A stretch of 52,945 nucleotides of DNA, taken from contig JACOZV010000004.1 in the NCBI GenBank assembly GCA_016181175.1, forward strand, positions 73,718 to 126,662. Direction: 5' to 3'. The translations under genes were made by a program, and so were the position numbers. Below the pieces are notes generated by a model, which was given only the letters and a program-made list of their open reading frames with translations, did not search any database and was not told where the DNA came from. Positions 10,899-52,945 of the stretch are shown piece by piece. Source of the DNA: Candidatus Yanofskybacteria bacterium (GTDB lineage Bacteria; Patescibacteriota; Minisyncoccia; 2-02-FULL-40-12; IGHO2-01-FULL-4-A). The stretch's first letter is position 1; each line of letters begins with the position of its first letter.

Positions 10899-11090
10899 TC
10901 AAAAATTACAAACCCCAAGCCGATACCAATCGGCGGTTTTTATCGTTCGCAAATTAACAAGATAGACTTCCAGCGAAGCGAGTTTCCCGGCGGAGGCGCG
11001 CGCGTTTTGCGCCTGTCCCGAAGGGCCAGCAAAACACGCGCGCGTAGCCGGAAAATAAACTATTTTGCTGTTTCAGTTTGTAATTTTTGA
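10899..11090 (+). repeat. TIR-bounded structured intergenic element, copy A (MITE-like)
   Basis: Starts TCAAAAATTACAAACC and ends GTTTGTAATTTTTGA. Hairpin 1 is GCCGAT-acca-ATCGGC. Hairpin 2 is at 10987-11051. No ORF. Its hairpin/TIR parts are near-identical to copy C. Confidence 0.75.
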
Positions 11091-11652: not shown

Positions 11653-12000
11653 TTAAGATTTGACAAAAACCGCGTTTTCTAATTTATCAACTCGCTTTTT
11701 AACCTGCTTAATTTCTCTGTTTAGCGACACATCCAAATTTTCTACCTTATTTACCACTCCGATAAGCTCTGATTCTATACGATCAACCTTGTTTTCAAGA
11801 ACATCAAACCTGCCGTCCATATCCTCAAATCTCTTATCTATCTGCCCAAATCTTTTATCTACTTGCCCAAATCTTTTATCTACTTGCTCAAATCTTTTAT
11901 CTACTTGCTCAAATCTCTTATCTACAGCATTAAAACCATTGCCTACCATTAGGGCCAATTTATCTAAAGTCATTTTGCCTTTTTTATTTTTCTCTGCCAT
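11653..12000 (-). CDS. Small coiled-coil protein with tandem heptad repeats (VDKRFEQ)x5
   Basis: The ATG at 12000 (MAEKNKKGKMTLDKL...) avoids overlap with fusA. Sequence AVDKRFEQVDKRFEQVDKRFGQVDKRFGQIDKRFEDMDGRFDV is followed by coiled-coil sequence. Function unknown. Confidence 0.55.
   Translation of the reverse strand: MAEKNKKGKMTLDKLALMVGNGFNAVDKRFEQVDKRFEQVDKRFGQVDKRFGQIDKRFEDMDGRFDVLENKVDRIESELIGVVNKVENLDVSLNREIKQVKKRVDKLENAVFVKS
11826..11930. repeat. 21-bp tandem repeat x5 (coding, heptad repeats)
   Basis: CAAATCT(C/T)TTATCTA(C/T)(T/C)TGC(C/T) repeated head-to-tail five times. Copies 3 and 4 are identical. Confidence 0.85.
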
Positions 12001-14664: not shown

Positions 14665-15216
14665 TTAAGGAGTTGCTGTGGGAGTCGGCGATCCGGCAGG
14701 ACTTACCGACGGACTAAAGGTTGGCATTGGTTTGTTGGCCCTACACGCCTTATAAGTCCTCTCTGCAAGTTTCCATGCATTTTCTGCGGCTTTTTTATCT
14801 AAGGCAAATTTAACTTGAATGGTTTTCTTGGCAGTCTGGTATTTCTTCTTGGCATCCTTGCTTTTGTCGGAAGCATTCCAGGCAGCACGCGCGGTTTCCA
14901 TTGATGCTAAGTATTCCTTTCGCGCTCCTTCCTTGGCATTTTTCCAGGCTTGTCTTGCCCTCTCAAACGGTTCTTTGCAAGATTCTTTTCTGGCTTTCTC
15001 AACTCGTTTTTGTTCCTTTTTGACCTCGGCTTCCAGCTTTTTTTCTTCTGCCTTAACACGACCCCTGTTTTCGTCTGACTTGGGAGTTTTACTGGGAGTG
15101 GGACTGACAATTACAGTTGGAGTCGAAGTCGGCGTTGGGCTTACGTCATCTGCAAAAGCCGTAAATGCCGAAAACGCAATCGCCAACGAAACGGTCGTTG
15201 AAACTACTCTCTTCAT
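14665..15216 (-). CDS. Secreted Lys/Ala-rich hypothetical protein
   Basis: Signal-peptide-like N-terminus (MKRVVSTTVSLAIAFSAFTAFA), Pro/Thr/Ser linkers at both ends and a charged helical core. I recognise no family. Confidence 0.55.
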   Translation of the reverse strand: MKRVVSTTVSLAIAFSAFTAFADDVSPTPTSTPTVIVSPTPSKTPKSDENRGRVKAEEKKLEAEVKKEQKRVEKARKESCKEPFERARQAWKNAKEGARKEYLASMETARAAWNASDKSKDAKKKYQTAKKTIQVKFALDKKAAENAWKLAERTYKACRANKPMPTFSPSVSPAGSPTPTATP

Positions 15217-15402
15217 AAATCTTAAAAATGGTCTGGGAATTTGAACTAATCAGCCAAGCTGATTGGTTATTCAAAACCTAAACCGATTGATTAGTTTACT
15301 TAAAACTCGCGGTTTCTCGACGCAACCGCTATGTTTAATTATAGCAGTAAACCAAGCGGTGGCAAAGCATGTTGAAAACAGCCAAAAGTAGGAAAGATAG
15401 TC

Positions 15403-16497
15403 CTATCCGTGCCTGGAAATGTTTAAAACGATTCCCAAACCGGCCATAATAGATACCAAAGCCGAACTGCCAAAACTTATAAATGGCAAAGGCAGTCCTG
15501 TAAGCGGAATCATGCCGGAGATGGCAAATATATTAATAAGCGCTTGGCCGCAAACCCAAGTTGTTACGCCCAGAACCAGCAGTTCGCCGAATTGATTGCT
15601 TACGGTCTTGGCAATATTTATCATGGCTAGCGACAAGGCCAAAAACAGCGAGAGAAGAAAAGCCCCGCCAACAAGGCCAAGCTCTTCAACAACTATCGCG
15701 AAAATTGAGTCGCCTACCGGTTCGGGAAGGAAATTTATTTTTTGTCGGCTTTGGCCGAACCCCAAGCCAAAAATACCGCCGGAACCTATTCCCAGAAGAG
15801 CCTGGTTAATATGATAAGAAGTATCTTGTTTATCGGACGAAGGATTAAAAAAGGCCTTAAGTCGGTCAAATCTATACGGCTCAACGACCGATAGCGCGCC
15901 AAGTAAAATACCCGCGACTAGAATTAAAACAACAAAGTGAGAAAATTTGGCGCCTGCAAAAAAGTACATTGACAAAGCAATTAAGGCAACCAAAACCAAC
16001 GTTCCCATATCCGGTTGGGATAATAGCAAAACACCAACGAAACCAAGCACCAACAGAAACGGGGCCAATGATTGTATCCTTTCTCCTATTCGTCCGTCTC
16101 GCCTGCTGAACCATGCGGCCAGATAAATAACAAGTGAGAGCTTCAGCACCTCCGAAGGTTGGAATGTAAAAATTTTTAGATCCAACCACCTTTGCGCCCC
16201 TCTCAAGCCATAGCCGATACCCGGCACGAAAACCAACACCATCAAACCGATTACCGCAACCAAAAGTGGCAAAGCAATTTTTTTCCAAAATTTGTAATTT
16301 ATCCTGGAAAAAAGTAAAAAGAGGGCCAAACCAGGCAAAACACCATAGAGAAACTGGTGGAGAAAATAGTAAGAAGGCGAACCGAAGCGTTTCTGTCCTT
16401 CAACTACGCCAGCGGAAGAAAGCATAACCAAACCAAAAACAATCAGAATAAAAACCAGTATCGTCAAGGTTTTACCAGATTTGGAAATCTGCATCAT
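15403..16497 (-). CDS. ftsW: SEDS-family peptidoglycan glycosyltransferase (FtsW/RodA)
   Basis: 364 aa with about 10 TM segments and typical FtsW/RodA motifs (QPSE..K, PDMGT, LPEP.GDSIFA). The FtsW versus RodA assignment is uncertain. Confidence 0.85.
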   Translation of the reverse strand: MMQISKSGKTLTILVFILIVFGLVMLSSAGVVEGQKRFGSPSYYFLHQFLYGVLPGLALFLLFSRINYKFWKKIALPLLVAVIGLMVLVFVPGIGYGLRGAQRWLDLKIFTFQPSEVLKLSLVIYLAAWFSRRDGRIGERIQSLAPFLLVLGFVGVLLLSQPDMGTLVLVALIALSMYFFAGAKFSHFVVLILVAGILLGALSVVEPYRFDRLKAFFNPSSDKQDTSYHINQALLGIGSGGIFGLGFGQSRQKINFLPEPVGDSIFAIVVEELGLVGGAFLLSLFLALSLAMINIAKTVSNQFGELLVLGVTTWVCGQALINIFAISGMIPLTGLPLPFISFGSSALVSIMAGLGIVLNISRHG

Positions 16498-16513: not shown

Positions 16514-16713
16514 TTAAAATTACAAACTTAACTGGTAGAAAAATTTATCTACCGGCTACGTGCACGTGTTTTGCTGGTCCTTCGGGACAGGCGCAAAACG
16601 CGCACGCCTCCACCGGTAAATAACATCCCCTTCTTAGTAATTATAAAAGTGATAAAAATCACCCCGACATCCGCCTGCTGGCGGAGTCGGGGGTTCCCGG
16701 TTTGTAATTTTAA
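16514..16713 (-). repeat. TIR-bounded structured intergenic element, copy B (opposite orientation to A and C)
   Basis: AAAATTACAAAC at 16516-16527 and GTTTGTAATTTT at 16700-16711. Hairpin 2 at 16552-16616 carries an apical C(TTCG)G at 16581-16584 on the + strand. Confidence 0.7.
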
Positions 16714-16833
16714 GGGGTCAGCCACAAAACATTACTAACTAAATTTTACGGCAAAATTCTGGTTTGGGAAAGATGGCTGAAAAAAACAAAAACCGCTTCC
16801 AGTGAAGCGGCATGACAGTAAAGACAAACAAGC

Positions 16834-19490: not shown

Positions 19491-19681
19491 TCAAAAATTA
19501 CAAACCCCAAGCCGATACCAATCGGCGGTTTTTATCGTTCATAGATTGATAAGAAAGGTGCTAGCCCGACGGATGTACCGGCGGAGGCGCGCGCGTTTTG
19601 CGCCTGTCCCGAAGGGCCAGCAAAACACGCGCGCGTAGCCGGTAAATAAAGTTTTGTGCTAATTAAGTTTGTAATTTTTGA
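19491..19681 (+). repeat. TIR-bounded structured intergenic element, copy C
   Basis: Same termini and the same two hairpins as copy A. The central spacer has diverged. The inverted repeat extends to CCGTC/GACGG (19488-19684). Confidence 0.75.
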
Positions 19682-21082: not shown

Positions 21083-21114
21083 TTAACCTAATAGTATTAT
21101 AAAAAACAAAACTA

Positions 21115-27878: not shown

Positions 27879-28071
27879 TCAAAATTACAAACCAACCTAT
27901 ACCGAAGAGCTCGATAACCAGCTACGCGAGTTCTTTTTGTTCAATCCACCCGATTACGGGATTTTTCACAAAAAGCCTCGCCTACGCCGAAATAACATCC
28001 TCTCGGTATTGATTATCTAGTTGCTAAACGCACGCCCATCTGCTGATGGGCTTGGGGTTTGTAATTTTTGA
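27879..28071 (-). repeat. TIR-bounded structured intergenic element, copy D (divergent interior)
   Basis: TCAAAATTACAAACC at 27879-27893 and GTTTGTAATTTTTGA at 28057-28071. Hairpin 1 is GCCCATC-agca-GATGGGC (read on the minus strand). Hairpin 2 has the same geometry as in the other copies but a different sequence. Confidence 0.65.
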
Positions 28072-28141: not shown

Positions 28142-28170
28142 TTGACAATGCCCTAGCGATTTGCTATACT
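28142..28170 (+). promoter_or_regulatory. Near-consensus sigma-70 promoter (TTGACA-17-TATACT) driving the small RNA
   Basis: TTGACA at 28142-28147, exact 17-nt spacer, TATACT at 28165-28170. There is no + strand ORF downstream. Confidence 0.55.
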
Positions 28171-28176
28171 TAAATT

Positions 28177-28290
28177 ACAATAAGCAAGGTCTAGGAGGCA
28201 GGTATTCCGGGCAGCCAATCGCGACCCCCTAGCACATAAGCCCCGGCCGGCATAAGTCGCGACCCCACTGCAGAAACGTGGGGTTTTTTA
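28177..28290 (+). ncRNA. Orphan small RNA (~110 nt) of unknown class
   Basis: Bounded by the promoter above and the terminator CCCCAC-tgcagaaac-GTGGGG plus a T-run (28263-28289). The interior has CTAGGAGG/CCCCCTAG pairing and a duplicated TCGCGACCCC box. Both flanking protein genes are on the opposite strand. Confidence 0.5.
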
Positions 28291-28299
28291 TTTTTTAAA

Positions 28300-28878
28300 C
28301 TATGTCAGCGCGGCTAATTCTTTTAAGACCGACTCAAAGGCATTAATTGCGAATAATGCCTGCTGGTGGGTCAGGCGGAAGTTGGCGTCGTGAACCAACA
28401 GATTGCGAAGTTTGTGGGCATCCCAGAGATATTGGAGATTGATTATCTGATCTGGCTTGATGAGCATCAAGCGTTCTCCCATTGATTCTCCGACGAAACC
28501 GGCGGTTTTCAGGACATCATCAACAAATTTATCGGCCTCAATTACGGCCAGTTTCCACTCGGCCTCAACAAAAGAATCAACGTGCCGTCTTATTTCCTGC
28601 CAACGGTTATCATAAGCCGTTACCGCTTCAACCGGCAGATTAAATTCACCTTTTATCCCAACCAATTCTTCTTTCAATGTGCCCAAAGTCCACAGTTTGC
28701 GGATCACTATCACAAAAATTGTTCCAAAAATAACTGTCAAAATTATCGCCACCGTTTTAATGTCAACAATAAGTCCGTGATAATCAAAATTGCTTAAAAA
28801 ATTCAAGGCCGTATCAAAAATCTGCGCCAATTGAGGAGAAACGTCTGTGCCGGAAATTGTGGCTGGTAATTGTGTCAT
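28300..28878 (-). CDS. Hypothetical single-pass membrane protein
   Basis: 192-aa ORF with one TM segment (VAIILTVIFGTIFVIVI) and a helical C-terminal domain. No family recognised. Confidence 0.5.
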   Translation of the reverse strand: MTQLPATISGTDVSPQLAQIFDTALNFLSNFDYHGLIVDIKTVAIILTVIFGTIFVIVIRKLWTLGTLKEELVGIKGEFNLPVEAVTAYDNRWQEIRRHVDSFVEAEWKLAVIEADKFVDDVLKTAGFVGESMGERLMLIKPDQIINLQYLWDAHKLRNLLVHDANFRLTHQQALFAINAFESVLKELAALT

Positions 28879-40669: not shown

Positions 40670-40754
40670 TTATTTCTGCTAAACATTAATTTTGATTTAT
40701 AAACACGCTGAGCTACCTCTAATGGGATAAAAATATAAACAAACCACAACAAAA

Positions 40755-40824
40755 CGTATTAAGGGGTTAGTATTAAGTATTAGGGGTAATTTTTAATTTC
40801 TGGTCTTACCATAATACTTAATAC
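40755..40824 (+). repeat. Pilus-operon hairpin repeat, copy T1
   Basis: GTATTAAGGGGTTAGTATTAAGTATTAGGGGTA...TACCATAATACTTAATACT. The arms AGTATTAAGTATTA and TAATACTTAATACT are inverted. Confidence 0.75.
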
Positions 40825-40848
40825 TGCATGCTGAACCCCACCCAGAAA

Positions 40849-41439
40849 TTATGGCTGGCCGGAATCGTAGATACAGTCACTCGCTGCGGTGTCGGTGCAA
40901 GCCTCTGTTCCTCCAGTCATAGCAGCACCGGACCATCCGGTTGAGTTGATATCGGTATCGTTATTAAGGGCATTAGTGTTTTTCTGTTCTAATTCCGCCC
41001 AAATCTGCATGCTTCTGGGAGTAGCAGCCGGATTCCACGCATAACCGTAACAGTTAAAAATACTTGAGACCGTACCAGCATAGGTGTCGGTGCAACCAGC
41101 CGCTATCGGATCATGTGGAATATTCACCAAGTATGTCGGTTTTAAACCTGTCATAACGTTGGTAGCCAAATAAGAACCGTTATCATCATAATAAAGTTCC
41201 AGGGCTGAACGAACCTGGTTTACGTCAGCAATACGCTTGGCATCTCTCGCTTTGGCTCTAGCTACGCCCAATTGCAACAATAGTAATGTTGCCAAAATTG
41301 AAATTATGGCAATAACAACCAAGAGTTCGACCAAGGTAAAACCCTTCGATTGGCTCAGGGCAAGTCCGTGAGAGCGATTCTTGCGTCCGCTTCCACCCGT
41401 GGGCCACTTTAGACCCAAAACACTTAAAAATATCGACAC
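40849..41439 (-). CDS. pilA: Major type IV pilin
   Basis: ...ALSQSKG/FTLVELLVVIAIISILATLLLLQLGVARAKARDAKR is the canonical pilin N-terminus. It has its own promoter. The start codon is uncertain (GTG at 41439 gives a 33-aa leader). Confidence 0.8.
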   Translation of the reverse strand: MSIFLSVLGLKWPTGGSGRKNRSHGLALSQSKGFTLVELLVVIAIISILATLLLLQLGVARAKARDAKRIADVNQVRSALELYYDDNGSYLATNVMTGLKPTYLVNIPHDPIAAGCTDTYAGTVSSIFNCYGYAWNPAATPRSMQIWAELEQKNTNALNNDTDINSTGWSGAAMTGGTEACTDTAASDCIYDSGQP

Positions 41440-41446
41440 TTTTTGA

Positions 41447-41482
41447 CTAGTTTCTAGTTTTATAAATTCTAGTTTCTAGTTT
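41447..41482 (-). promoter_or_regulatory. Direct repeats (CTAGTTT)2-N8-(CTAGTTT)2 in the pilA 5' leader
   Basis: CTAGTTTCTAGTTT at 41447-41460 and at 41469-41482, 22 bp centre to centre, 8-43 nt upstream of the pilA start. Confidence 0.45.
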
Positions 41483-41540
41483 CTAAACAATTAAAAACTG
41501 GCAACCAGATAAAAACTAAAACCACGTTTAATTACTAAAA

Positions 41541-41569
41541 TTATAATTTTTAAACGAGTTTAAATCAAC
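41541..41569 (-). promoter_or_regulatory. Near-consensus promoter of pilA (TTGATT-17-TATAAT)
   Basis: On the minus strand, TTGATT (41569-41564), a 17-nt spacer and TATAAT (41546-41541). Confidence 0.5.
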
Positions 41570-41600
41570 TTAAGTTATACACACCCTGCAATAATAAAAA

Positions 41601-41677
41601 AGTGTTAAGTATCAAGTATTATGGGAAAGTCACGAATTCATAATTCCCTTTAATACTTAATACTAGCCCCTTAATAC
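41601..41677 (-). repeat. Pilus-operon hairpin repeat, copy T2 (inverted orientation, followed by a T-run on the minus strand)
   Basis: Minus strand: GTATTAAGGGGCTAGTATTAAGTATTAAAGGGA...TCCCATAATACTTGATACTTAACACTTTTTT. It lies directly after the pilC stop. Confidence 0.75.
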
Positions 41678-41681
41678 CGCC

Positions 41682-42890
41682 TTACCCGGCCCCGACTAAA
41701 CTGTATATGGGCAACAGAACGGCTGACACCAAAAGGCCAACACCAATACCCAGAACTAAGATTAAAACCGGTTCAATAAGTTGGGAGAGGTTTTGAATGC
41801 TGTTTTCCGATTCGGTTTTATAAAAGTTAAATATGTTTTCAAGCACAAAATCTGTCTTTCCGGTTTTTTCTCCGATAATCAACATGGAACTTACCAAGGG
41901 GGGTATTTCGCTGTATTTTTCAAAAACTTGTGAAATGGTACCGCCACCCCTAACGTTTTCTTTGGCTTGTAGCAAGATTCCCCTGTATACGTCATTGCCC
42001 ACAACGTCGGCGGTAATACCTATTCCATCAAGGATCGGCACATCGGATTTTATCAGTGTTGCAAGCGTCTCGGCAATACGCGCCAAATAAAAATTTCTTG
42101 TTATCTCGCCAAATCGCGGCATTTTTATTTTAAAGTTATCAAAACGCTCACGTCCACGCGGAGTTTTGACGTAATAAACCAACATTGCAAACCCGCCCAC
42201 CATCAAGGTCACCAGTAAAAAAAGATACTTATTTATAAAACCGGTCACGGCCATCAAAACCCTTGTGGTAACGGGAATATCCGTAATACCGGCGTCATTT
42301 ATAACTGAAAGCAATTGCGGCAAAACTGTCGTCATTAAAAGCATCGTCACGATTACCATCGCAGAAAGAACAAACGCCGGATAAGCAAGCGCTCCTTTGA
42401 TTTTTGAATTTAGCGAAGCACTCCTTTCTAAATATTCTGCAAGATAAGTCAACGTAGTCTGAAGTTTACCAGTTGCCTCGCCGGCTCTTACCAAACTAAT
42501 GTAAAAACGATTAAAAACCTTGCTATGCTCGGCCAAAGCAACTGAAAGGGGCGCGCCTCCTTCAATTGATGACACAACGGTTGAAACAATTTTTTTAAAT
42601 GACCCTTTTTCAACTTGCCTAGAAAGAATGTGCAAACCCTCCACCAACGGCACATCCGCTTCAATCAATGTTGCCATTTGTCTGGTAAACAAAACTACGT
42701 CTTTGTGGGAGGGTCTGCTAAACATCGTCGTTATGTCGCGCGACAACAAACCCTTGCGGGTTTTCTCTAAACTCAAAATCGCCAGGTTCTTCTGGTGTAA
42801 AATATTTACTGCTTGATCTTCAGAGGGAGCTTCAATTTTGCCTGTAGTCAACTCCCCCGCTTGAGTTTTAGCCTGATATAAAAACTCCAA
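41682..42890 (-). CDS. pilC: Type IV pilus platform protein (GspF/PilC family)
   Basis: 402 aa with two T2SF repeats and 3 TM segments. The start is a TTG per the track. Confidence 0.9.
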   Translation of the reverse strand: MEFLYQAKTQAGELTTGKIEAPSEDQAVNILHQKNLAILSLEKTRKGLLSRDITTMFSRPSHKDVVLFTRQMATLIEADVPLVEGLHILSRQVEKGSFKKIVSTVVSSIEGGAPLSVALAEHSKVFNRFYISLVRAGEATGKLQTTLTYLAEYLERSASLNSKIKGALAYPAFVLSAMVIVTMLLMTTVLPQLLSVINDAGITDIPVTTRVLMAVTGFINKYLFLLVTLMVGGFAMLVYYVKTPRGRERFDNFKIKMPRFGEITRNFYLARIAETLATLIKSDVPILDGIGITADVVGNDVYRGILLQAKENVRGGGTISQVFEKYSEIPPLVSSMLIIGEKTGKTDFVLENIFNFYKTESENSIQNLSQLIEPVLILVLGIGVGLLVSAVLLPIYSLVGAG

Positions 42891-42893
42891 AAA

Positions 42894-42962
42894 GTATTAA
42901 GGGGTTAGTATTAAGTATAAAGTTAATTTGGGGTTTATCTTTTTACCATAATACATAATACT
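42894..42962 (+). repeat. Pilus-operon hairpin repeat, copy T3
   Basis: GTATTAAGGGGTTAGTATTAAGTATAAAGTTA...TACCATAATACATAATACT fills the pilT-pilC gap. Confidence 0.75.
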
Positions 42963-42967
42963 GATCC

Positions 42968-44059
42968 CTATTTTAGGAGAGTTCTCAATTCTGCTGGGTG
43001 TAATGAATAAAACTCCGCTTGTTCGTAAGAAATCTCGCCGCGCCGCACCAAGTCAGCCAAAGAACGATTTAAAGATACCATGCCAACATCGGAACCGGTA
43101 TCTATCATCAAATTCAGTTGTTGGACTTTCCCTTCGCGGATAATTGTCCTGACAGCTGGGGTCGCAATCATAACCTCTACAGCCGGAACTAATCCACCCT
43201 TTATGCGCGGAATCAATCTCATTGAAATAACACCGGAGATGGTATTTGCCAATTGGGATATTATTTGCCGTTGCTGTTGCGGAGGGAAAATATCAATAAT
43301 ACGCTCGATGCTTTGGGCTGCATTATTGGTGTGAAGAGACGCAAAAACCAGATGCCCAGTTTCTGCAGCAGTCACAGCGGTACTTACAGTATCATAATCC
43401 CGCATTTCACCCACCATTATTACGTTCACATTTTCACGAAACGTAGAACGTAGGGCCTTGTTGAAAGATATGGTGTCAAAGTAAACCTCTCTCTGGTCAA
43501 TTATGCTTTTATCTGGAGTAAAAACGTATTCAATCGGATCCTCAATGGTTATTATTTTCTCACCGCGCTCGTGATTTATCAGGTCTATCAGCGACGCCAG
43601 CGTCGTGGACTTGCCATGTCCGTTGGGGCCGACGACCAAAACAAATCCTTGAGACAATCTCGTAAATATCTTTAAAATCGGCGGCAAATTAAGTTCATCA
43701 ACCGTTTTAATTTCACTGGGAATAAGGCGAAAAGCAGCAGCAAAGTTGCCCCTGGTGTGATATAGATTCACCCTAAAACGCAGCTTATTGCTTAATTCAT
43801 AAGAAAAATCTAGTTCTTTTTCAGCTAAAAATTTTTCTTTAGGGCCATCGCTAACCAACGACAAAACCAAGTTGTTGAGCAACTGATTATCCAGGATCTT
43901 GCGATCGGTTAATGGCACTAGCCGCCAGTCAATGCGAATTGTCGGATAGTGTCCGGGCGATAAATGCAAATCAGAGCCACCCTTTTGGGCAGTTACCGTT
44001 AAAAGCTCATCTAACTGTTTTTTATAATTTTCGCTTTGTATGTTTTGTGATGTATCCAT
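42968..44059 (-). CDS. pilT: Type IV pilus retraction ATPase
   Basis: 363 aa. Walker A GPNGHGKST, an Asp box, Walker B and a PilT-type His box (ASLHTNNAAQ). Confidence 0.88.
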   Translation of the reverse strand: MDTSQNIQSENYKKQLDELLTVTAQKGGSDLHLSPGHYPTIRIDWRLVPLTDRKILDNQLLNNLVLSLVSDGPKEKFLAEKELDFSYELSNKLRFRVNLYHTRGNFAAAFRLIPSEIKTVDELNLPPILKIFTRLSQGFVLVVGPNGHGKSTTLASLIDLINHERGEKIITIEDPIEYVFTPDKSIIDQREVYFDTISFNKALRSTFRENVNVIMVGEMRDYDTVSTAVTAAETGHLVFASLHTNNAAQSIERIIDIFPPQQQRQIISQLANTISGVISMRLIPRIKGGLVPAVEVMIATPAVRTIIREGKVQQLNLMIDTGSDVGMVSLNRSLADLVRRGEISYEQAEFYSLHPAELRTLLK

Positions 44060-44139
44060 CCTCGCTCTAAATTTTTAATTTCCAATTTTTAATTTTTAAA
44101 TAAATCTTAATGTTTTAATTTTTAAACATTAGAAATTAT

Positions 44140-45819
44140 TTATAAAATTATAAAATTAAAAATTATACCCTGGCGTATCGCTTCTTTCCGCAATTCTTCC
44201 TCGGAAATATTTGTAAGGACTATTCTTTCCAGTTCATCGGTCATGGCCAATGTCTCAAACACACCCATCCTGCCCTTATAGGACTTGCCGTTACATTCCT
44301 TGCAACCTTCGCCAGGTTTAAATATTTCAAAATTACTCTTGGGCAACTCTTTTTGGGCGTCGGGCGGCATTTTATCTAACGCCTTCTTTATCATAAACTC
44401 TTCACCGGTGTTGGCTTTGGTTTTTATTTTGCAGGTTTGACATAATTTTCTGACCAACCTCTGAGCCACCGCCAAGTTAAGCGTCGGGGCAATCAGATAT
44501 TTTTCCACGCCCATATCAACTAACCTGGGAATGACGCCGATTGTATCGTTTGTGTGCAAGGTAGAAAGCACGACATGGCCGGTCAAAGATGCTTGAATCG
44601 CCAAACTGGCGGTTTCACCGTCTCTAATCTCGCCCACCATTATTACATCCGGGTCTTGCCTCAAGATATGCCTTAGGCCATTGGCGAAAGTGTAGTTAAT
44701 TTCTTCGTGCGTTTGCGACTGATTAATTCCGTTTATGTAGTATTCTATTGGATCCTCTAGGGTTACTATATTGATACCTTCGTCGTTAATCTCACGCAAC
44801 ACCGCCGCCAATGTGGTCGACTTGCCAGAACCGGTCGGCCCGGTAATAAGAATCTCACCGAACGGTTTGACTATGCTTTCACGAACTAAATCCAAAGACC
44901 TGCCCCCCAGTCCCAGATCAGTCAATTTAATGTCACCGACAAGCGGATCCAATATTCTCAATACAACCTTCTCGCCGTTTCTGGTGGGAAAAGTAGAAAC
45001 CCTAAAATCAACGCGCCTATCCCCCACCTTGGTAGAAAACCGGCCATCTTGTGCCAAGCGAGTTTCATCAATCTTAAGATCGGAGAGAATCTTAATCCTT
45101 GTAACTAGTGCGGACAACAAACCGGTGGGCAAAGAAAGGACGGTCTGCAAAACACCATCAACGCGGAATCTTAAGCGCACCCTATCTTCAAACGGCTCTA
45201 TGTGAATATCTGAAGCACGCGTCTCAACCGCGTGCTTAATGACGATGGCAACAATGCGAGTAACTGGCGCTTCAGCGGTTATTTCTTCCAAACCGCCAGT
45301 TTTCTCGGTAATTTTGAGTTCTTTTTGAGAAACCTCCTCTGATAATTGCTCCAATGCTCGACCGACCTCCGTTGTCAACGTGCGGACGCTTTTGCTTAAA
45401 TTGTCAAAATCCTTATAACTAATGAGGTATTTCTCTAAATTAAGACCGCGGTCGAAAGCTATAAACTTAACCGCTTCCAGCGCATCAATGTTTTCCGGAT
45501 TTACAACGCCCACCCTCAAAACAGAACTATCCCTGGCAAAAGGTAAAACTTTGTAAAAATTGATTATGTTTTCGGGGATATCTTTTACTACATCGCGATC
45601 AATTTCAACACCAGAAAGGTCAGCCACAGGAAGCTGATAAATCTGCGATTTTATCTTAAGAAGATCGGCATCGCTTATTATGCTCTTTCTAACTAAAACC
45701 TCTCCAAAGTCCTTTTGAATTGCAGATGCTTCATTTTCAACTTCATTTGCAACCCCCGAGCTTAAAAGTCCCTGGCGCAGAAGTTCCTCTATTAAAAGTT
45801 GCGGAAGTTGATACGGCAC
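44140..45819 (-). CDS. pilB: Type IV pilus assembly ATPase (GspE/PilB family), apparently C-terminally shortened
   Basis: N-terminal GspII_E-like domain, Walker A GPTGSGKST and a tetracysteine CQTC...CKEC. The GTG at 45819 (VPYQLPQLLIEELL) is preferred over the track start at 45867, which lies in a repeat hairpin. Confidence 0.85.
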   Translation of the reverse strand: MPYQLPQLLIEELLRQGLLSSGVANEVENEASAIQKDFGEVLVRKSIISDADLLKIKSQIYQLPVADLSGVEIDRDVVKDIPENIINFYKVLPFARDSSVLRVGVVNPENIDALEAVKFIAFDRGLNLEKYLISYKDFDNLSKSVRTLTTEVGRALEQLSEEVSQKELKITEKTGGLEEITAEAPVTRIVAIVIKHAVETRASDIHIEPFEDRVRLRFRVDGVLQTVLSLPTGLLSALVTRIKILSDLKIDETRLAQDGRFSTKVGDRRVDFRVSTFPTRNGEKVVLRILDPLVGDIKLTDLGLGGRSLDLVRESIVKPFGEILITGPTGSGKSTTLAAVLREINDEGINIVTLEDPIEYYINGINQSQTHEEINYTFANGLRHILRQDPDVIMVGEIRDGETASLAIQASLTGHVVLSTLHTNDTIGVIPRLVDMGVEKYLIAPTLNLAVAQRLVRKLCQTCKIKTKANTGEEFMIKKALDKMPPDAQKELPKSNFEIFKPGEGCKECNGKSYKGRMGVFETLAMTDELERIVLTNISEEELRKEAIRQGIIFNFIIL

Positions 45820-45839
45820 GTTTAAGTGGTAAGTAGCAA

Positions 45840-45915
45840 GTAGTAAGTGGCGGGCACGGGGCAACAAGTTTAATTTTGTTTTTTCGCGTGCTACGTTCTA
45901 CTTGCCACTTACTAC
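45840..45915. repeat. Intercistronic hairpin upstream of pilB (sequence variant of the T family geometry)
   Basis: GTAGTAAGTGGC at 45840-45851 and GCCACTTACTAC at 45904-45915, a 12-bp perfect inverted repeat. Confidence 0.6.
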
Positions 45916-45931
45916 GTATTGCAATGCTTCG

Positions 45932-46213
45932 TTAGAAGGGCGCGAAAATATCAATGCGACCAGTTGAGCCTGGCTGGACCGGTGATTCGCCGAAAATCCT
46001 AAGAGTTTTAAATATTAGGTTATCCAGACCAGAAAAATCAAGTTTTAAATCCTTGAACTTAGAAAAATTTACGTCGGTAAGACTTGCTGGCACAACCGAA
46101 ACGGATTGATCTTGTGATGTTTGGTTATAATAAAAATAACCCACAATTAAACCGAGTATGATAATCGCAAATAAAATTACCGGGCTTGTTGTATTTTTGG
46201 TTGGAGTAATCAT
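45932..46213 (-). CDS. Small single-pass membrane protein in the pilus operon
   Basis: ATG at 46213 (MITPTKNTTSPVILFAIIILGLIVGYFYY...). The track N-terminal extension runs through repeat T4 and was trimmed. Confidence 0.45.
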   Translation of the reverse strand: MITPTKNTTSPVILFAIIILGLIVGYFYYNQTSQDQSVSVVPASLTDVNFSKFKDLKLDFSGLDNLIFKTLRIFGESPVQPGSTGRIDIFAPF

Positions 46214-46218
46214 AAAAA

Positions 46219-46288
46219 GTATAAAGGGGTTAGTATTGAGTATTAAGGGAAATTTGGGATGCCCCCCATAATACATAATACTTGATAC
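46219..46288 (+). repeat. Pilus-operon hairpin repeat, copy T4
   Basis: GTATAAAGGGGTTAGTATTGAGTATTAAGGGA...CCCATAATACATAATACTTGATAC. Confidence 0.7.
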
Positions 46289-47391: not shown

Positions 47392-47476
47392 TAACCTATA
47401 CTCATTATACTACATGATGTCTGAATGCTTATTCACAACTAACCACATTTACAAAATTAAAATATTTTATTAAAAA

Positions 47477-48577: not shown

Positions 48578-48589
48578 ACGTCTATTGTC

Positions 48590-48598
48590 ATTATACCA
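48590..48598 (-). promoter_or_regulatory. Extended -10 element (TGgTATAAT) upstream of pilM
   Basis: Minus strand TGGTATAAT, 12 nt before the pilM ATG. This implies a very short leader. Confidence 0.4.
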
Positions 48599-48621
48599 CT
48601 AGCTTGATAAATCTTATACAC

Positions 48622-51223: not shown

Positions 51224-52825
51224 TCACGGACAACAAAAAGTTGCCCCGGCCACCACAGTAAACAGTTTTTTGACGAGGAATGGCCGAGAAATTAAAAGCC
51301 GCTGTGGTGGAATTGGCAGACACGCACGACTCAAAATCGTGTGCCGTAAGGCATGTCGGTTCGACTCCGACCAGCGGCACCACGTTGGAAAAGTCAATGC
51401 CTCGCCCCGCCTTCGGCGGGTCTCGGCGACCAAATCGTACGGATTTTTCGGGGCAAAAAGAAATTCCCGATTCCGGTTTTTCAGAAATGTTGCCATTTCG
51501 GAAAGATTTTCTGATTCAAGTAAATTAGTGGCTTGATTCAAGGATTTAACGAACTCACGAGCCGGTTCGAGCCAATACAAACCTTTTTGCTCAAAGTCGG
51601 TGATTTTCTCGTTTAACTCGACCTTTTGGCAAATGAGGGTATCTTTTTTAGCGGCGTATTCTTTTTGTGTAAGCGCGTCGTCAAGATATGCGTCAAGCAA
51701 TTTTTGGAGCCTCGTTTCAACTTGCCATAATTGCATTTTAAGATTTACCACCTCACCCATCGCTTGTTCCTTTGCCTGTTTTTCTTCCGTGTCTAACGCC
51801 GCCAAAACCTTTTCGGTATCTTGGCTCGACAAAGAAACTTTTTGAAGGAAGTTTTTGATTTGTTCCACTAACTGACTTTCATCAAGATATTTTTCTTGGC
51901 ACGCGCCTCGCTTTTTTGTACAGCGATAGTAAGTGTAAATACCGCCATTACCTTTTGCATATTGAGCAGTTATCGAGCAGCCGCACGAGGCGCACTTCAT
52001 AAGGCCAAGAAAAGGAAAGTTATGTTTCCTGTCCGGTCTCACTTTTCCGCGTTTCGTCATCACTTCCTGACATTGATCAAAAAGTTTCTTTGAGGTTAAC
52101 GGCTCGTGTGTTCCCTCAAAAATTTCTCCTTTGTATCGCATAAGCCCGATGTAAAAAGGATTTTGGAGAATATGCTGAACATTGCTCAATGATATTTTGT
52201 TTCCGGCATTCGTGAGCAACTTCTTTTTCTCACACCAATTTGCGAGAGCAATGAGAGGATATGCTCCAGTGGCATACATTTCAAAGATTTTCTTTACTAG
52301 AAGAGCTTTTTCGGTATCAAGATCAATACCGCGCGATTTGGGGTTATTGAGATAGCCCACCGGAGCCCAACTTGGCCATACTCCATTTCGTATCTTTTGT
52401 CGTAAACCCCTTTTTACGTTCTCTCGCAAATTATCCACAAAGTATTTACTCTGTCCAAAAGCAATGTTCAGCATAAATAATCCTTGTGGTGTCGGTTCAA
52501 ACCAGAAGCAGGGAAATTTGAGGGAACGAATCAAGCCGCGATCAACGAAGTGGATTATCTTCCCCCCATCGACCGAATTTCTTGCAAGACGATCTGGGTG
52601 CCACGAAATAATCCCGTCTGCTTTTCCCTGTTCCAAAAATGACAACATTTCTGCGAATTTAATTCGCCCGGGTTCTTTTGCGGTTTTGGCCTCTTGGAAA
52701 GAGGCGACAATTTCAAGTTTTTCTTTGGCGGCAAATTCTTTGAGCTCAACGAGTTGAGCTTCAATACTTAATACTTGACGGTCATCTTCTTCAGTACTTT
52801 TCCTCGCGTAGATGATGTATTTCAT
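51224..52825 (-). CDS. Large serine recombinase (resolvase catalytic domain, recombinase domain, zinc ribbon, coiled coil); 3' end uncertain
   Basis: N-terminus MKYIIYARKSTEEDDRQVLSIEAQ (catalytic Ser context) and a zinc ribbon CASCGCSITAQ...YYRC followed by a coiled coil. The last ~80 codons read through IR-L and antisense through tRNA-Leu (RWSESNRHA), so the true C-terminus is doubtful. Confidence 0.85.
   Translation of the reverse strand: MKYIIYARKSTEEDDRQVLSIEAQLVELKEFAAKEKLEIVASFQEAKTAKEPGRIKFAEMLSFLEQGKADGIISWHPDRLARNSVDGGKIIHFVDRGLIRSLKFPCFWFEPTPQGLFMLNIAFGQSKYFVDNLRENVKRGLRQKIRNGVWPSWAPVGYLNNPKSRGIDLDTEKALLVKKIFEMYATGAYPLIALANWCEKKKLLTNAGNKISLSNVQHILQNPFYIGLMRYKGEIFEGTHEPLTSKKLFDQCQEVMTKRGKVRPDRKHNFPFLGLMKCASCGCSITAQYAKGNGGIYTYYRCTKKRGACQEKYLDESQLVEQIKNFLQKVSLSSQDTEKVLAALDTEEKQAKEQAMGEVVNLKMQLWQVETRLQKLLDAYLDDALTQKEYAAKKDTLICQKVELNEKITDFEQKGLYWLEPAREFVKSLNQATNLLESENLSEMATFLKNRNREFLFAPKNPYDLVAETRRRRGEALTFPTWCRWSESNRHALRHTILSRACLPIPPQRLLISRPFLVKKLFTVVAGATFCCP
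51298..51382 (+). tRNA. tRNA-Leu (anticodon CAA), CCA encoded
   Basis: GCCGCTG-TG-GTGGAATTGGCAGACAC-G-CACGA-CTCAAAA-TCGTG-TGCCGTAAGGCATG-TCGG-TTCGACT-CCGA-CCAGCGGC-ACCA. Long variable arm, 7-bp acceptor stem. Confidence 0.9.
51401..51475. repeat. Left copy of a 75-bp perfect inverted repeat (IR-L), 18 bp after tRNA-Leu
   Basis: CTCGCCCCGCCTTCGGCGGGTCTCGGCGACCAAATCGTACGGATTTTTCGGGGCAAAAAGAAATTCCCGATTCCG is the exact reverse complement of 52871-52945. Confidence 0.9.
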
Positions 52826-52870: not shown

Positions 52871-52945
52871 CGGAATCGGGAATTTCTTTTTGCCCCGAAA
52901 AATCCGTACGATTTGGTCGCCGAGACCCGCCGAAGGCGGGGCGAG
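52871..52945. repeat. Right copy of the 75-bp inverted repeat (IR-R), truncated by the window end
   Basis: Exact reverse complement of 51401-51475. Identity stops at the inner boundary (52870 differs) and may continue beyond 52945. Confidence 0.9.

What the first reader, a model, noticed from the sequence alone, without database searches (positions are those of the whole stretch)
10987..11051. Compensatory substitutions keep both hairpins of the element folded; a UUCG tetraloop marks one strand
Hairpin 2:
- Copies A and C pair CGCGCGCG-TTTTGC with GCAAAA-(CA bulge)-CGCGCGCG, closed by CCGG/CCGG.
- Copy B (16552-16616) has CGTGCGCG opposite CGTGCACG. A C-to-T change on one arm is matched by G-to-A on the other, and one further pair becomes G.U.
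- Copy D replaces the whole helix with CGAG-G-CTTTTTGT opposite ACAAAAAG-AA-CTCG. The sequence is different but the stem lengths and bulge position are the same.

Hairpin 1 likewise changes sequence while staying paired:
- A and C: GCCGAT-acca-ATCGGC
- B: CCGCC-agca-GGCGG nested inside CCCCGAC/GTCGGGG
- D: GCCCATC-agca-GATGGGC

The tip of hairpin 2 reads C(UUCG)G on the + strand in B (16581-16584) and on the minus strand in A and C.

Structure is therefore conserved while sequence is not. This points to selection on a folded nucleic acid, either an RNA or a single-stranded DNA intermediate, rather than simple repeat decay.
Basis: partly seen in the sequence, partly recalled or inferred. Interest (0 to 1): 0.75.

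Follow-up and report, generated by a model that had tools for sequence, protein, structure and literature searches.

The report
Structured inverted-repeat mobile element, Yanofskybacteria
The hairpin is one module of a ~190-base, non-coding repeat bounded by inverted ends that is scattered between housekeeping genes of a tiny groundwater bacterium, and its folding on one strand is kept by selection; this resembles known bacterial mini-transposons but is a family not described before.

Summary
Positions 10987-11051 are "hairpin 2" of a ~190-nt non-coding element bounded by 15-bp terminal inverted repeats (TCAAAAATTACAAAC...GTTTGTAATTTTTGA). The window holds four copies, all between housekeeping genes of a Candidatus Yanofskybacteria (CPR) genome. 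I collected 16 copies from five genomes or metagenomes.

- **Hairpin 2:** 94.6% of pair cells stay paired, and 10 of 14 inner pairs show double (compensatory) changes. Non-Watson-Crick cells are mostly G.U (15) rather than A.C (4), so one strand is the folded one. That strand also carries hairpin 1 plus a T-run.
- **Conservation:** A GNAG/GNAG internal loop at the hairpin foot and the inverted ends are about 95% conserved. Spacers are 54-71% conserved.
- **Hairpin 1:** a terminator-like module that is swapped between copies rather than slowly compensated.
- **Negatives:** no Rfam, plasmid, phage or literature match, no target-site duplication, no transposase found.
- **Related genomes:** they carry different interiors at the same junctions, or empty sites.

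Best reading: a MITE/REPIN-like mobile repeat whose hairpin 2 is selected as a single-stranded recognition structure. Whether that strand is RNA or ssDNA is unresolved. It is a new variant of a known kind, of moderate interest.

The parts
10899..11090 (+). Copy A, whole element (192 nt). It lies between the lemA stop (11096) and the pyrG start (about 10877), antisense to both genes.
10899..10913 (.). Copy A, left terminal inverted repeat TCAAAAATTACAAAC.
   Evidence: The repeats are 92-96% conserved over 15 copies.
10919..10934 (+). Copy A, hairpin 1 (GCCGAT-ACCA-ATCGGC), followed by GGTTTTTATCG. This is a terminator-like module.
   Evidence: (flagged terminator-like)
10987..11051 (+). Copy A, hairpin 2 (the finding). 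Layout: foot helix CCGGC/GCCGG, internal loop GGAG/GUAG, (CG)n helix, C.A mismatch or CA bulge, UUUUGC/GCAAAA helix, variable tip.
11076..11090 (.). Copy A, right terminal inverted repeat GTTTGTAATTTTTGA.
16514..16714 (-). Copy B, whole element, folded strand is the - strand. It ends 16 nt upstream of the ftsW ATG (16497), sense to the genes. Hairpin 1 is at 16663-16693 and hairpin 2 at 16552-16616. An orthologous copy is present in JACPNJ (L059 9765-9980).
19491..19681 (+). Copy C, whole element, between the class II aaRS (AsnRS-like) gene stop (19694) and the dacA-like gene start (19461), antisense to both. Hairpin 1 is at 19511-19526 and hairpin 2 at 19578-19642.
27879..28071 (-). Copy D, divergent copy, folded strand is the - strand. 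It ends about 13 nt upstream of the comEC ATG (27865). Hairpin 1 is at 28034-28051. Hairpin 2 is at 27918-27989, with a different inner stem but the same foot (CGGCGUAGGCG...CGCGUAGCUGG).

Best explanation
The finding is hairpin 2 of a ~190-bp non-coding, dispersed repeat of Candidatus Yanofskybacteria (CPR/Patescibacteria). I read the repeat as a non-autonomous mobile element in the style of MITEs and REPINs.

Anatomy, on the strand I call canonical (the + strand of A and C, the - strand of B and D):
- a 15-20-bp terminal inverted repeat;
- hairpin 1, a GC-rich stem followed by (G)TGATTTTTATC, which is an intrinsic-terminator module;
- an AT-rich spacer;
- hairpin 2;
- a second spacer;
- the other terminal inverted repeat.

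Shown:
- The family is dispersed, intergenic and mosaic.
- Sites are filled in some genomes and empty in others.
- The terminal repeats and hairpin 2 are far more conserved than the rest of the element.
- Hairpin 2 keeps pairing through double substitutions.
- Wobble pairs are tolerated on the canonical strand only.
- A two-fold symmetric unpaired foot motif is conserved in all stem types: 5'-C-GNA-G on both arms, read as GGAG/GUAG.

Inferred:
- Hairpin 2, with its GNAG-tagged foot, is the structure that an unidentified trans-acting protein recognises on the single-stranded canonical strand.
- This works like the way REP hairpins with an unpaired GTAG tag are recognised as ssDNA by RAYT-type HUH transposases. 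The absence of target-site duplications fits that picture.
- The same strand is probably also transcribed. Hairpin 1 plus the T-run would stop incoming transcription, and in 'sense' copies hairpin 2 would sit in the 5' leader of ftsW, comEC or dacA.
- The terminal repeats serve as the ends for mobilisation or recombination. Modules, and even whole interiors, are exchanged between copies at these conserved segments.
For: - **Repeat family with inverted ends.**. 16 copies were found in the window, three Yanofskybacteria MAGs, one Paceibacteria MAG and metagenome contigs.
- **Genomic context.** All copies are intergenic and sit between housekeeping genes.
- **Covariation in hairpin 2.** 94.6% of cells are paired, 10 pairs changed on both sides, and 0/500 shuffles reached the observed values. 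RNAalifold independently predicts the same helices.
- **Strand asymmetry.** 15 G.U versus 4 A.C cells. Consensus energy is -34.1 against -26.9 kcal/mol on the other strand.
  - The asymmetry holds both in copies sense to the flanking genes and in copies antisense to them.
- **Conservation profile.** Terminal repeats 0.92-0.96, hairpin-2 foot 0.95-0.96, spacers 0.54-0.71.
  - A versus C: hairpin 2 65/65, terminal repeats 30/30, spacers 71-74% identical.
- **Hairpin 2 is tied to the element.** A covariance model of hairpin 2 finds it only inside these elements in 310 kb of related DNA.
- **Mosaicism.** L059 versus L062a are 97% identical in the left half and 56-84% in the right half, at different loci in different species.
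- **Site polymorphism.**
  - Sites A and B are empty in JACOZZ, and site B is empty in JBGGHI.
  - Site B is filled in JACPNJ.
  - Sites A, C and D in JACPNJ have homologous junctions but different interiors.
- **Shared ends.** The same terminal repeat bounds a second ~350-nt structured family.
- **Hairpin 1.** Flagged terminator-like on the canonical strand.
- **Precedent.** For GTAG-tagged REPs, G.T pairing, sub-families with complementary stem changes, and Y1 transposases associated with TIR families: PMC3733652.
Against: - No transposase of any kind (DDE, Y1/RAYT) was seen in the window or in about 310 kb of related loci. The only recombinase is a large serine recombinase at the window end.
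- No target-site duplication and no clean empty site with near-identical flanks were found, so mobility is inferred, not shown.
- The 5' tag is mostly GGAG, which is outside the reported GTAG degeneracy (GYAG, GYRG, GTRG, GTMG). The tag also occurs on both sides of the stem.
- Copies are 10-25% diverged, so there is no sign of a recent burst.
- Orthologous retention at all four sites in a species with about 83% protein identity could instead mean a host function.
- One conserved C.A mismatch in hairpin 2 and one in hairpin 1 of L003 would be wobble pairs on the other strand.
- Only about five independent hairpin-2 lineages are available, so covariation statistics are weak against phylogeny.
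Confidence: 0.5

Rival explanations
1. The element's main product is a structured RNA.
- An internal promoter in the AT-rich spacer (a GATAAT/TATAAT-like box about 12-16 nt after the T-run) would drive canonical-strand transcription through hairpin 2 and out of the right end.
- In sense copies this gives a structured 5' leader for ftsW, comEC or dacA.
- In antisense copies it gives an antisense RNA against the 3' end of the convergent gene.
- Hairpin 2 would be a protein-binding, processing or stability element, and mobility would be secondary or extinct.
For: - G.U asymmetry and the hairpin 1 + T-run lie on the same strand.
- The right end lies 10-20 nt from a start codon in the clearly sense copies (B, D, L059, L062a, L063; 45-55 nt in L003 and L012), or 5-12 nt from a stop codon in 7 antisense copies. 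The left-end gaps have a median of about 80 nt.
- In copy B a strong hairpin-1 terminator sits between an upstream promoter-like site (16770-16743) and ftsW, so ftsW needs a promoter or read-through inside the element.
- A -10-like hexamer sits at a fixed alignment position in about 11 of 16 copies.
- Genes of this genome use -10 boxes close to the ATG.
- The same four sites are occupied in a second species.
Against: - The sigma-70 scan found no promoter inside any copy, and -10-like hexamers are common in AT-rich DNA.
- Orientation relative to genes is mixed: 3 independent sense sites against 7 antisense.
- There is no Rfam match at any threshold.
- The tip loops are not classical RNA tetraloops on this strand.
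- No expression data are available.
Confidence: 0.3
2. There is no selection on folding. The complementary changes arise mechanically by template switching within quasi-palindromes or by gene conversion between copies, and the hairpins are passive palindromes of a decaying repeat.
For: - Palindrome correction is a known mutational route (established knowledge).
- Module swapping and mosaic copies show that recombination between copies is frequent.
- Hairpin 1 differences look like replacements.
Against: - Correction would erase unpaired features. Yet the GNAG/GNAG foot loop is kept in all stem types, and a mid-stem mismatch or loop is kept in most of them (not in L012).
- Half-steps are biased to G.U on one strand.
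- Hairpin 2 and the terminal repeats are identical between A and C while their spacers differ by 26-29%.
Confidence: 0.07
3. The arms act in double-stranded DNA as binding sites for a dimeric protein (an operator-like palindrome or a site-specific recombination site such as an integron attC or dif-like site), not as a folded strand.
For: - The terminal repeats are a perfect 15-bp palindromic pair.
- Junctions are conserved while interiors differ, which recalls cassette exchange.
Against: - The most conserved hairpin-2 bases (GNAG on both arms) are direct repeats in duplex DNA, not inverted ones. They make structural sense only in a folded strand.
- Strand-asymmetric wobbles are present.
- The ends do not fit the attC core sites RYYYAAC / GTTRRRY (direct reading).
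- Copies lie in both orientations between syntenic housekeeping genes, with no integrase next to them.
Confidence: 0.05

Closest known systems
Bacterial MITEs such as Correia/NEMIS (Neisseria), RUP and BOX (S. pneumoniae), and ERIC/IRU (reviews PMC10969869, PMC3184786, PMC2229807, listed; details from my own knowledge)
   Same: - Small size (about 100-250 bp) and non-coding.
- Terminal inverted repeats.
- Dispersed in intergenic DNA close to gene ends.
- Strongly folding as RNA.
- Can carry terminators or promoters.
- Mosaic, modular sub-families.
   Different: - No target-site duplication (Correia elements duplicate TA).
- No cognate insertion sequence found.
- No sequence similarity.
- An internal, off-centre hairpin with conserved unpaired motifs and strand-specific wobble pairs, rather than the whole element being one long palindrome.
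- The host is a CPR bacterium. Two full-text literature searches for such elements in CPR/Patescibacteria returned nothing relevant.
REP / REPIN elements with RAYT transposases, including GTAG-tagged REPs and TIR families linked to Y1 transposases ('TIRtrons') (PMC3733652; PMC3479197 and PMC3337134, listed)
   Same: - An extragenic GC-rich imperfect hairpin with an unpaired G-N-A-G tag at its foot.
- Sub-families with complementary stem changes.
- Frequent G.T pairs.
- No target-site duplication.
- Location just downstream of coding regions.
- Recognition expected on one DNA strand.
   Different: - REPs are 20-40 nt with one GTAG tag. Here the tagged hairpin is 55-70 nt, has tags on both arms (mostly GGAG on the 5' side and GUAG on the 3' side), is enclosed by a further helix, and is only one module of a 190-nt unit bounded by terminal inverted repeats.
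- No RAYT or Y1 gene was seen in the DNA available.
Rho-independent (intrinsic) transcription terminators
   Same: Hairpin 1 is a GC-rich stem with a 4-nt loop followed by a T-run on the canonical strand. Copies A and C are flagged by the consensus scan.
   Different: - In 7 of 10 unidirectional sites the terminator faces against the flanking genes.
- D and L004 lack the T-run.
- The tail TGATTTTTATC(AC) is itself a conserved motif.
Integron attC sites
   Same: Structure is conserved more than sequence, unpaired bases are conserved, and the site is read as a folded single strand.
   Different: - The core sites do not match.
- Copies are not in arrays with cassettes.
- Both orientations occur.
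- There is no integrase.
- Flanking genes are syntenic housekeeping genes.

Membership tests
MITE | Short (<~500 bp) non-coding unit with terminal inverted repeats | tested here: met
   The units are 182-253 nt with 15-bp perfect terminal repeats. There is no conserved ORF: the ATG in the spacer gives frames that differ between copies.
MITE | Multiple dispersed copies per genome | tested here: met
   Four copies lie in this 53-kb window, and at least 5 were found in the JACOZZ01 MAG.
MITE | Target-site duplication flanking each copy | tested here: not met
   No direct repeat of 2-10 bp is seen next to the ends in 17 elements. The flanks instead extend the inverted repeat by 2-8 variable bases.
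MITE | A parental insertion sequence with the same terminal repeats and a transposase | tested here: inconclusive
   No pair of terminal repeats encloses an ORF, and no transposase domain was found in the window or in about 310 kb of related loci (and the gene tables). Whole genomes could not be scanned.
MITE | Insertion polymorphism (filled versus empty sites) | tested here: inconclusive
   Sites A and B are empty in JACOZZ, and site B is empty in JBGGHI. The flanks are too diverged to define exact breakpoints.
REP/REPIN-RAYT | GC-rich imperfect palindrome with an unpaired GTAG (GYAG/GTRG) tag at one end | tested here: inconclusive
   The 3' side reads GUAG in 13 of 16 copies. The 5' side reads GGAG in 14 of 16, which is outside the reported degeneracy. 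Tags occur on both sides, and the hairpin is longer than a REP.
REP/REPIN-RAYT | A RAYT (Y1 HUH transposase) gene in the genome, flanked by the repeats | not testable with these tools
None was seen in the sampled loci.
Intrinsic terminator (hairpin 1) | GC-rich stem-loop immediately followed by a U-tract on the transcribed strand | tested here: met
   A and C are flagged. 13 of 16 copies have TTTT(T) within 2-4 nt of the stem. Actual termination was not tested.
Integron attC | R'' RYYYAAC and R' GTTRRRY core sites, in cassette arrays next to intI | tested here: not met
   The ends read TACAAAC and GTTTGTA. Copies are isolated, lie in both orientations, and sit between syntenic core genes.
Any Rfam RNA family | Match to a curated covariance model | tested here: not met
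   Only tRNAs reach the gathering threshold in the window and 11 loci. At E up to 10, 5 and 5, copy A, copy D and the related ~350-nt family gave only chance-level hits.

The most novel reading that the evidence does not exclude
The terminal repeats define fixed intergenic 'docking junctions' in CPR genomes. At these junctions, different structured cargos are exchanged: the 190-nt family with its GNAG-tagged hairpin, a 350-nt structured family, and others. A single-strand-specific enzyme not yet identified would drive the exchange. This would be a REP/RAYT-like or otherwise new ssDNA or RNA-guided cassette system in Patescibacteria, and its hairpin 2 would be a new class of protein-recognition motif, possibly doubling as a portable terminator-plus-leader unit for essential genes.
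Probability: 0.15. Interest if true: 0.75.

Novelty: new variant of a known kind. Interest (0 to 1): 0.5.

Why it matters
CPR/Patescibacteria have tiny, compact genomes, and the literature searches here found no description of such repeat elements in them. This window shows a structured repeat family that occupies several of the spaces between core genes (pyrG, ftsW, dacA, comEC).

- It is conserved in its ends and in one hairpin across species, and it is built from swappable modules.
- If the hairpin is an ssDNA recognition site, it extends REP/RAYT-type biology to the CPR.
- If the hairpin is an RNA, it is a new mobile cis-acting or antisense RNA module placed in front of cell-division and competence genes.
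- Either way, it gives a concrete and testable handle on gene punctuation and genome plasticity in organisms that cannot yet be grown alone.

Tried and rejected
- **Rfam.** Gathering threshold on the window and 11 loci, and permissive thresholds on A, D and the long family. Only tRNAs or noise came back.
- **Literature.** Searches for MITEs or repeats in CPR, and for the repeat sequence itself, found nothing relevant.
- **Plasmid and phage BLAST, and IMG/VR scans.** No match.
- **Small ORF.** Some copies have an ATG after a GGAGG-like box that would give a 25-26-aa peptide across hairpin 2. A has no ATG, C is in another frame and D stops early, so this is rejected (direct reading).
- **K-turn or sarcin-ricin reading of the foot loop.** The required GA on the opposing strand and the 3-nt bulge are not there, so this is rejected (direct reading).
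- **attC.** The core sites do not fit.
- **Target-site duplication.** None found.
- **Autonomous copy.** No distant pair of terminal repeats encloses an ORF.
- **Sigma-70 promoter inside the element.** None was flagged.
- **Bias relative to replication.** Copies are 2:2 on a window with uniformly negative GC skew.
- **Wasted search.** One homologue search went to a lineage-specific PKD protein.
- **Metagenome pattern scan.** It mostly returned an unrelated heptamer-array element, and only L012 was a true member.
- **Last relative fetched (L083).** It has no copy.
- **77-nt insert in hairpin 2 of L062b.** It occurs nowhere else in the fetched loci.

Full report
**What is at the coordinates**

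Positions 10987-11051 form a 65-nt imperfect hairpin. It is not a lone feature. It lies inside a 192-nt unit (10899-11090) bounded by perfect 15-bp terminal inverted repeats, TCAAAAATTACAAAC ... GTTTGTAATTTTTGA.

The window holds four such units:
- A, 10899-11090, + strand;
- B, 16514-16714, inverted;
- C, 19491-19681, + strand;
- D, 27879-28071, inverted and divergent inside.

The 12-mer core of the terminal repeat occurs 12 times (up to one mismatch) against 1.4 expected. Whole units fold with z-scores of -6.6 to -7.2 against dinucleotide shuffles on either strand.

This covers the arms of A, B, C and D, the hairpin-1 variants, and the UUCG at 16581-16584.

**Host and context**

The flanking genes are housekeeping genes, almost all on the - strand. 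They include pyrG, lemA, fusA, rpsT, ftsW, mraY, a D-Ala-D-Ala carboxypeptidase, a class II aaRS, comEC, gatA, ligA, type IV pilus genes and parAB.

Their closest relatives are Candidatus Yanofskybacteria MAGs. All four copies fill short intergenic spaces:
- A lies between lemA and pyrG.
- B lies 16 nt upstream of ftsW.
- C lies between the aaRS gene and the carboxypeptidase gene.
- D lies about 13 nt upstream of comEC.

No transposase is encoded in the window. The only recombinase is a large serine recombinase at the far end.

**More copies**

A pattern built from the two terminal repeats found copies in three genomes:
- two Yanofskybacteria MAGs, JACOZZ01 and JACPNJ01;
- one Paceibacteria MAG, JBGQJN01.

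The metagenome scan added one true member, L012. Its other hits belong to an unrelated element.

Syntenic loci of relatives were fetched through ftsW and ligA homologues. These gave further copies and also empty sites. In all there are 16 copies.

I call the + strand of A the canonical strand. On it the order is:
1. terminal repeat;
2. hairpin 1;
3. a T-rich box, (G)TGATTTTTATC;
4. an AT-rich spacer;
5. hairpin 2;
6. a second spacer;
7. terminal repeat.

**Hairpin 2**

A 15-sequence alignment (A3) with the helices foot, (CG)n and U/A gave these counts:
- 94.6% of cells form standard pairs.
- 10 of the 14 inner pairs have changes on both sides.
- All five measures exceeded every one of 500 shuffles.
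- Slid controls gave 31-59% paired. The highest value, at +2, reflects the CG repeat.

RNAalifold, run independently, predicts the same helices plus a tip helix, and 13 pairs show double changes.

Three stem types exist: type I (12 copies), the D/L063/L069 type, and L012. They share a U-rich/A-rich helix in two of the three types. All of them share the foot: 5'-CCGGC-G(G/U/A)AG-G... and ...C-G(U/G)AG-CCGG-3'. This can be drawn as a two-fold symmetric loop, C-GNA-G on both arms.

That loop and a mid-stem mismatch or loop are unpaired features. The foot loop survives in all lineages, and the mid-stem feature in all but L012. This argues against mere palindrome self-correction.

A caveat on register: the (CG)n helix can slip by two.

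**Which strand folds**

On the canonical strand the non-Watson-Crick cells are 15 G.U against 4 A.C. Two of the four A.C cells are at the dubious outermost pair. One depends on the register, and one lies in an internal loop.

Counted as distinct column events, this is about 9-11 against 1-3, which gives a one-sided binomial p of roughly 0.01-0.03 (my arithmetic).

The consensus energy is -34.1 kcal/mol on the canonical strand and -26.9 on the other, where many pairs become C.A. The tip helix of type I is GUCC/GGGC on the canonical strand, with a U.G wobble. The same position is a C.A mismatch on the UUCG strand.

The asymmetry holds in copies of either orientation relative to the flanking genes. 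The folded strand is therefore a property of the element, not of the host transcript.

This contradicts the idea that UUCG marks the functional strand. The tip is also not conserved: it reads GUAG, UAAU or other sequences elsewhere.

One conserved C.A in hairpin 2 and one in hairpin 1 of L003 point the other way. The inference is good but not absolute.

**Hairpin 1**

All copies except the degenerate L069 have a GC-rich hairpin at this place. At least five unrelated stems occur:
- GCCGAT/ATCGGC;
- a 13-bp stem starting CCCCGACTCCGCC;
- CCCCTCCCCAGTTTT...;
- GCCCAGCCTCACTTTTG...;
- an expanded form in L063.

Within the first class there is one double change, C-G to T-A in L059 and L062a, and one uncompensated half-step in L003. 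A and C are flagged as terminator-like on the canonical strand.

Hairpin 1 is best described as a swappable intrinsic-terminator module. It is not a helix evolving by stepwise compensation.

**Selection and mosaicism**

Majority-base conservation over the copies is:

| Segment | Conservation |
|---|---|
| Terminal repeats | 0.92-0.96 |
| Hairpin-2 foot | 0.95-0.96 |
| Rest of hairpin 2 | 0.84-0.89 |
| Hairpin 1 | 0.66 |
| Spacers | 0.54-0.71 |

A and C, in the same genome, are identical in hairpin 2 (65/65) and in the terminal repeats (30/30). They are only 71-74% identical in the spacers.

L059 (JACPNJ, upstream of ftsW) and L062a (JACOZZ, upstream of the carboxypeptidase gene) are 97% identical in the left half and 56-84% in the right half. 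Module combinations are reshuffled among copies.

The covariance model of hairpin 2 finds it nowhere outside these elements in 310 kb of related DNA.

**Sites in relatives**

- JACOZZ has lemA and pyrG abutting, so site A is empty. It has a plain terminator upstream of ftsW, so site B is empty.
- JBGGHI also lacks B.
- JACPNJ has B in the same place and orientation, but with a different hairpin 1 and an extra hairpin.

At sites A, C and D, JACPNJ has homologous junctions. The flank plus the first 10-16 bases of the terminal repeat match, but the interiors are different. They are other families that share CAAAAATTA, or a ~350-nt structured family that shares the full TCAAAAATTACAAACC.

No target-site duplication is visible. 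Instead the flanks prolong the inverted repeat by a few variable, sub-family-specific bases.

Copies are oriented sense to unidirectional flanking genes at 3 independent sites and antisense at 7. The right end sits in one of two places:
- 10-20 nt from a start codon in the clearly sense copies, and 45-55 nt in two others (L003, L012);
- 5-12 nt from the stop codon of a convergent gene in the antisense copies.

Gaps at the left end are larger, with a median of about 80 nt.

**What it most likely is**

The anatomy matches the class of small non-autonomous bacterial repeats: MITEs such as Correia, RUP and ERIC, and REP/REPIN elements.

Strict MITE membership fails on the target-site duplication and lacks a parental insertion sequence.

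The REP/RAYT comparison has points in its favour (PMC3733652):
- REPs are GC-rich imperfect hairpins with an unpaired GTAG tag.
- They show sub-families with complementary stem changes and frequent G.T pairs.
- They make no duplications.
- They are read as ssDNA by Y1 transposases.
- Some Y1 transposases are associated with TIR families.

Points against the REP/RAYT comparison:
- The 5' tag here is mostly GGAG.
- Tags flank both sides of the stem.
- The hairpin is longer than a REP.
- It is only one module of the element.
- No Y1 gene could be looked for genome-wide.

I therefore commit to a mobile-type repeat bounded by terminal inverted repeats, whose hairpin 2 is a single-strand recognition structure (confidence 0.5). 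An RNA-level role for the same strand is the main rival, or a complement (0.3). That role would be a terminator plus a structured leader or an antisense RNA.

Passive palindrome maintenance (0.07) and a duplex-DNA binding or recombination site (0.05) are unlikely, for the reasons given above.

**Novelty**

There is no Rfam family and no plasmid or phage similarity. Two targeted full-text literature searches found no paper on such elements in CPR bacteria.

It is a new family and a variant of a known kind of element. The unusual points are:
- the conserved GNAG-tagged, off-centre hairpin;
- the absence of target-site duplications;
- the apparent exchange of interiors at conserved junctions in front of essential genes.

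Without expression data or a partner enzyme, the mechanism remains inferred.

Noticed in passing
L059 15637-15999; L005 6941-7294; L080 ~15100-15222 (half copy at the site of window copy D): A second, ~350-nt strongly folding family is bounded by the same terminal repeat (TCAAAAATTACAAACC) plus a sub-terminal CCCCCTAATTTTTC/GAAAAATTAGGGGG repeat. It contains GGCG(G/T)AGG motifs like the hairpin-2 foot. Related interiors without the terminal repeat lie upstream of ftsW in L069 and upstream of comEC in L082. There is no Rfam match.
   Followed up: partly
L059 6166-6350 and L059 15227-15540: Two further repeat families share only the outer CAAAAATTA...TAATTTTTG ends. They sit at the orthologous positions of window copies C and A.
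   Followed up: partly
window 28142-28300 (+ strand): A near-consensus promoter (TTGACA-17-TATACT, with TG) is followed by a ~115-nt GC-rich stretch. The stretch ends in a terminator (CCCCACTGCAGAAACGTGGGG + T-run), next to copy D. This is a candidate unannotated small RNA gene with no Rfam hit. It has some resemblance to SRP RNA motifs (CAGGU...GCAGCCAA), from memory only.
   Followed up: partly
window 51401-51475 and 52871-52945: A 75-nt perfect inverted repeat brackets a large serine recombinase gene (51224-52825, - strand) beside tRNA-Leu (51298-51382). The second arm ends exactly at the window end. This could be an invertible or integrative element, or an assembly artefact.
   Followed up: no
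L009 2804-2987, L013 4804-4981, L028 483-666 and about 45 other metagenome loci: A different and widespread element: inverted arrays of degenerate heptamers (ACAAATT / AATTTGT) flanking two or three small hairpins with CCTTCGG-type loops and a terminator-like stem. It was picked up only because the heptamers contain my search word.
   Followed up: no
L062 ~15958-16026: A 77-nt palindromic insert sits inside the apical loop of hairpin 2 of one copy. It is not found elsewhere in the fetched loci. It suggests that hairpin loops are insertion targets.
   Followed up: partly
window, upstream of many genes (e.g. 2649-2680, 21083-21110, 47392-47420, 48578-48600): TGnTATAAT-type -10 boxes lie only 8-13 nt upstream of ATG, and Shine-Dalgarno sequences are rare. 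Transcripts in this organism would therefore be near-leaderless.
   Followed up: no
window 40751-46258: A repeated AAAAAGTATTAAGGGGTTAGTATTAAGTAT motif (3 direct copies plus an inverted copy) lies in the intergenic spaces of the type IV pilus gene cluster.
   Followed up: no
window 11804-11924: Five tandem 21-nt repeats (TCAAATCT(C/T)TTATCTA...) lie inside overlapping ORFs next to copy A.
   Followed up: no
L076-L079, L060, L061, L065 (Logan contigs): Short-read assemblies of the same or sister strains break inside the element upstream of ftsW or dacA. This is expected for a multi-copy repeat and is independent confirmation that the repeat is real.
   Followed up: partly
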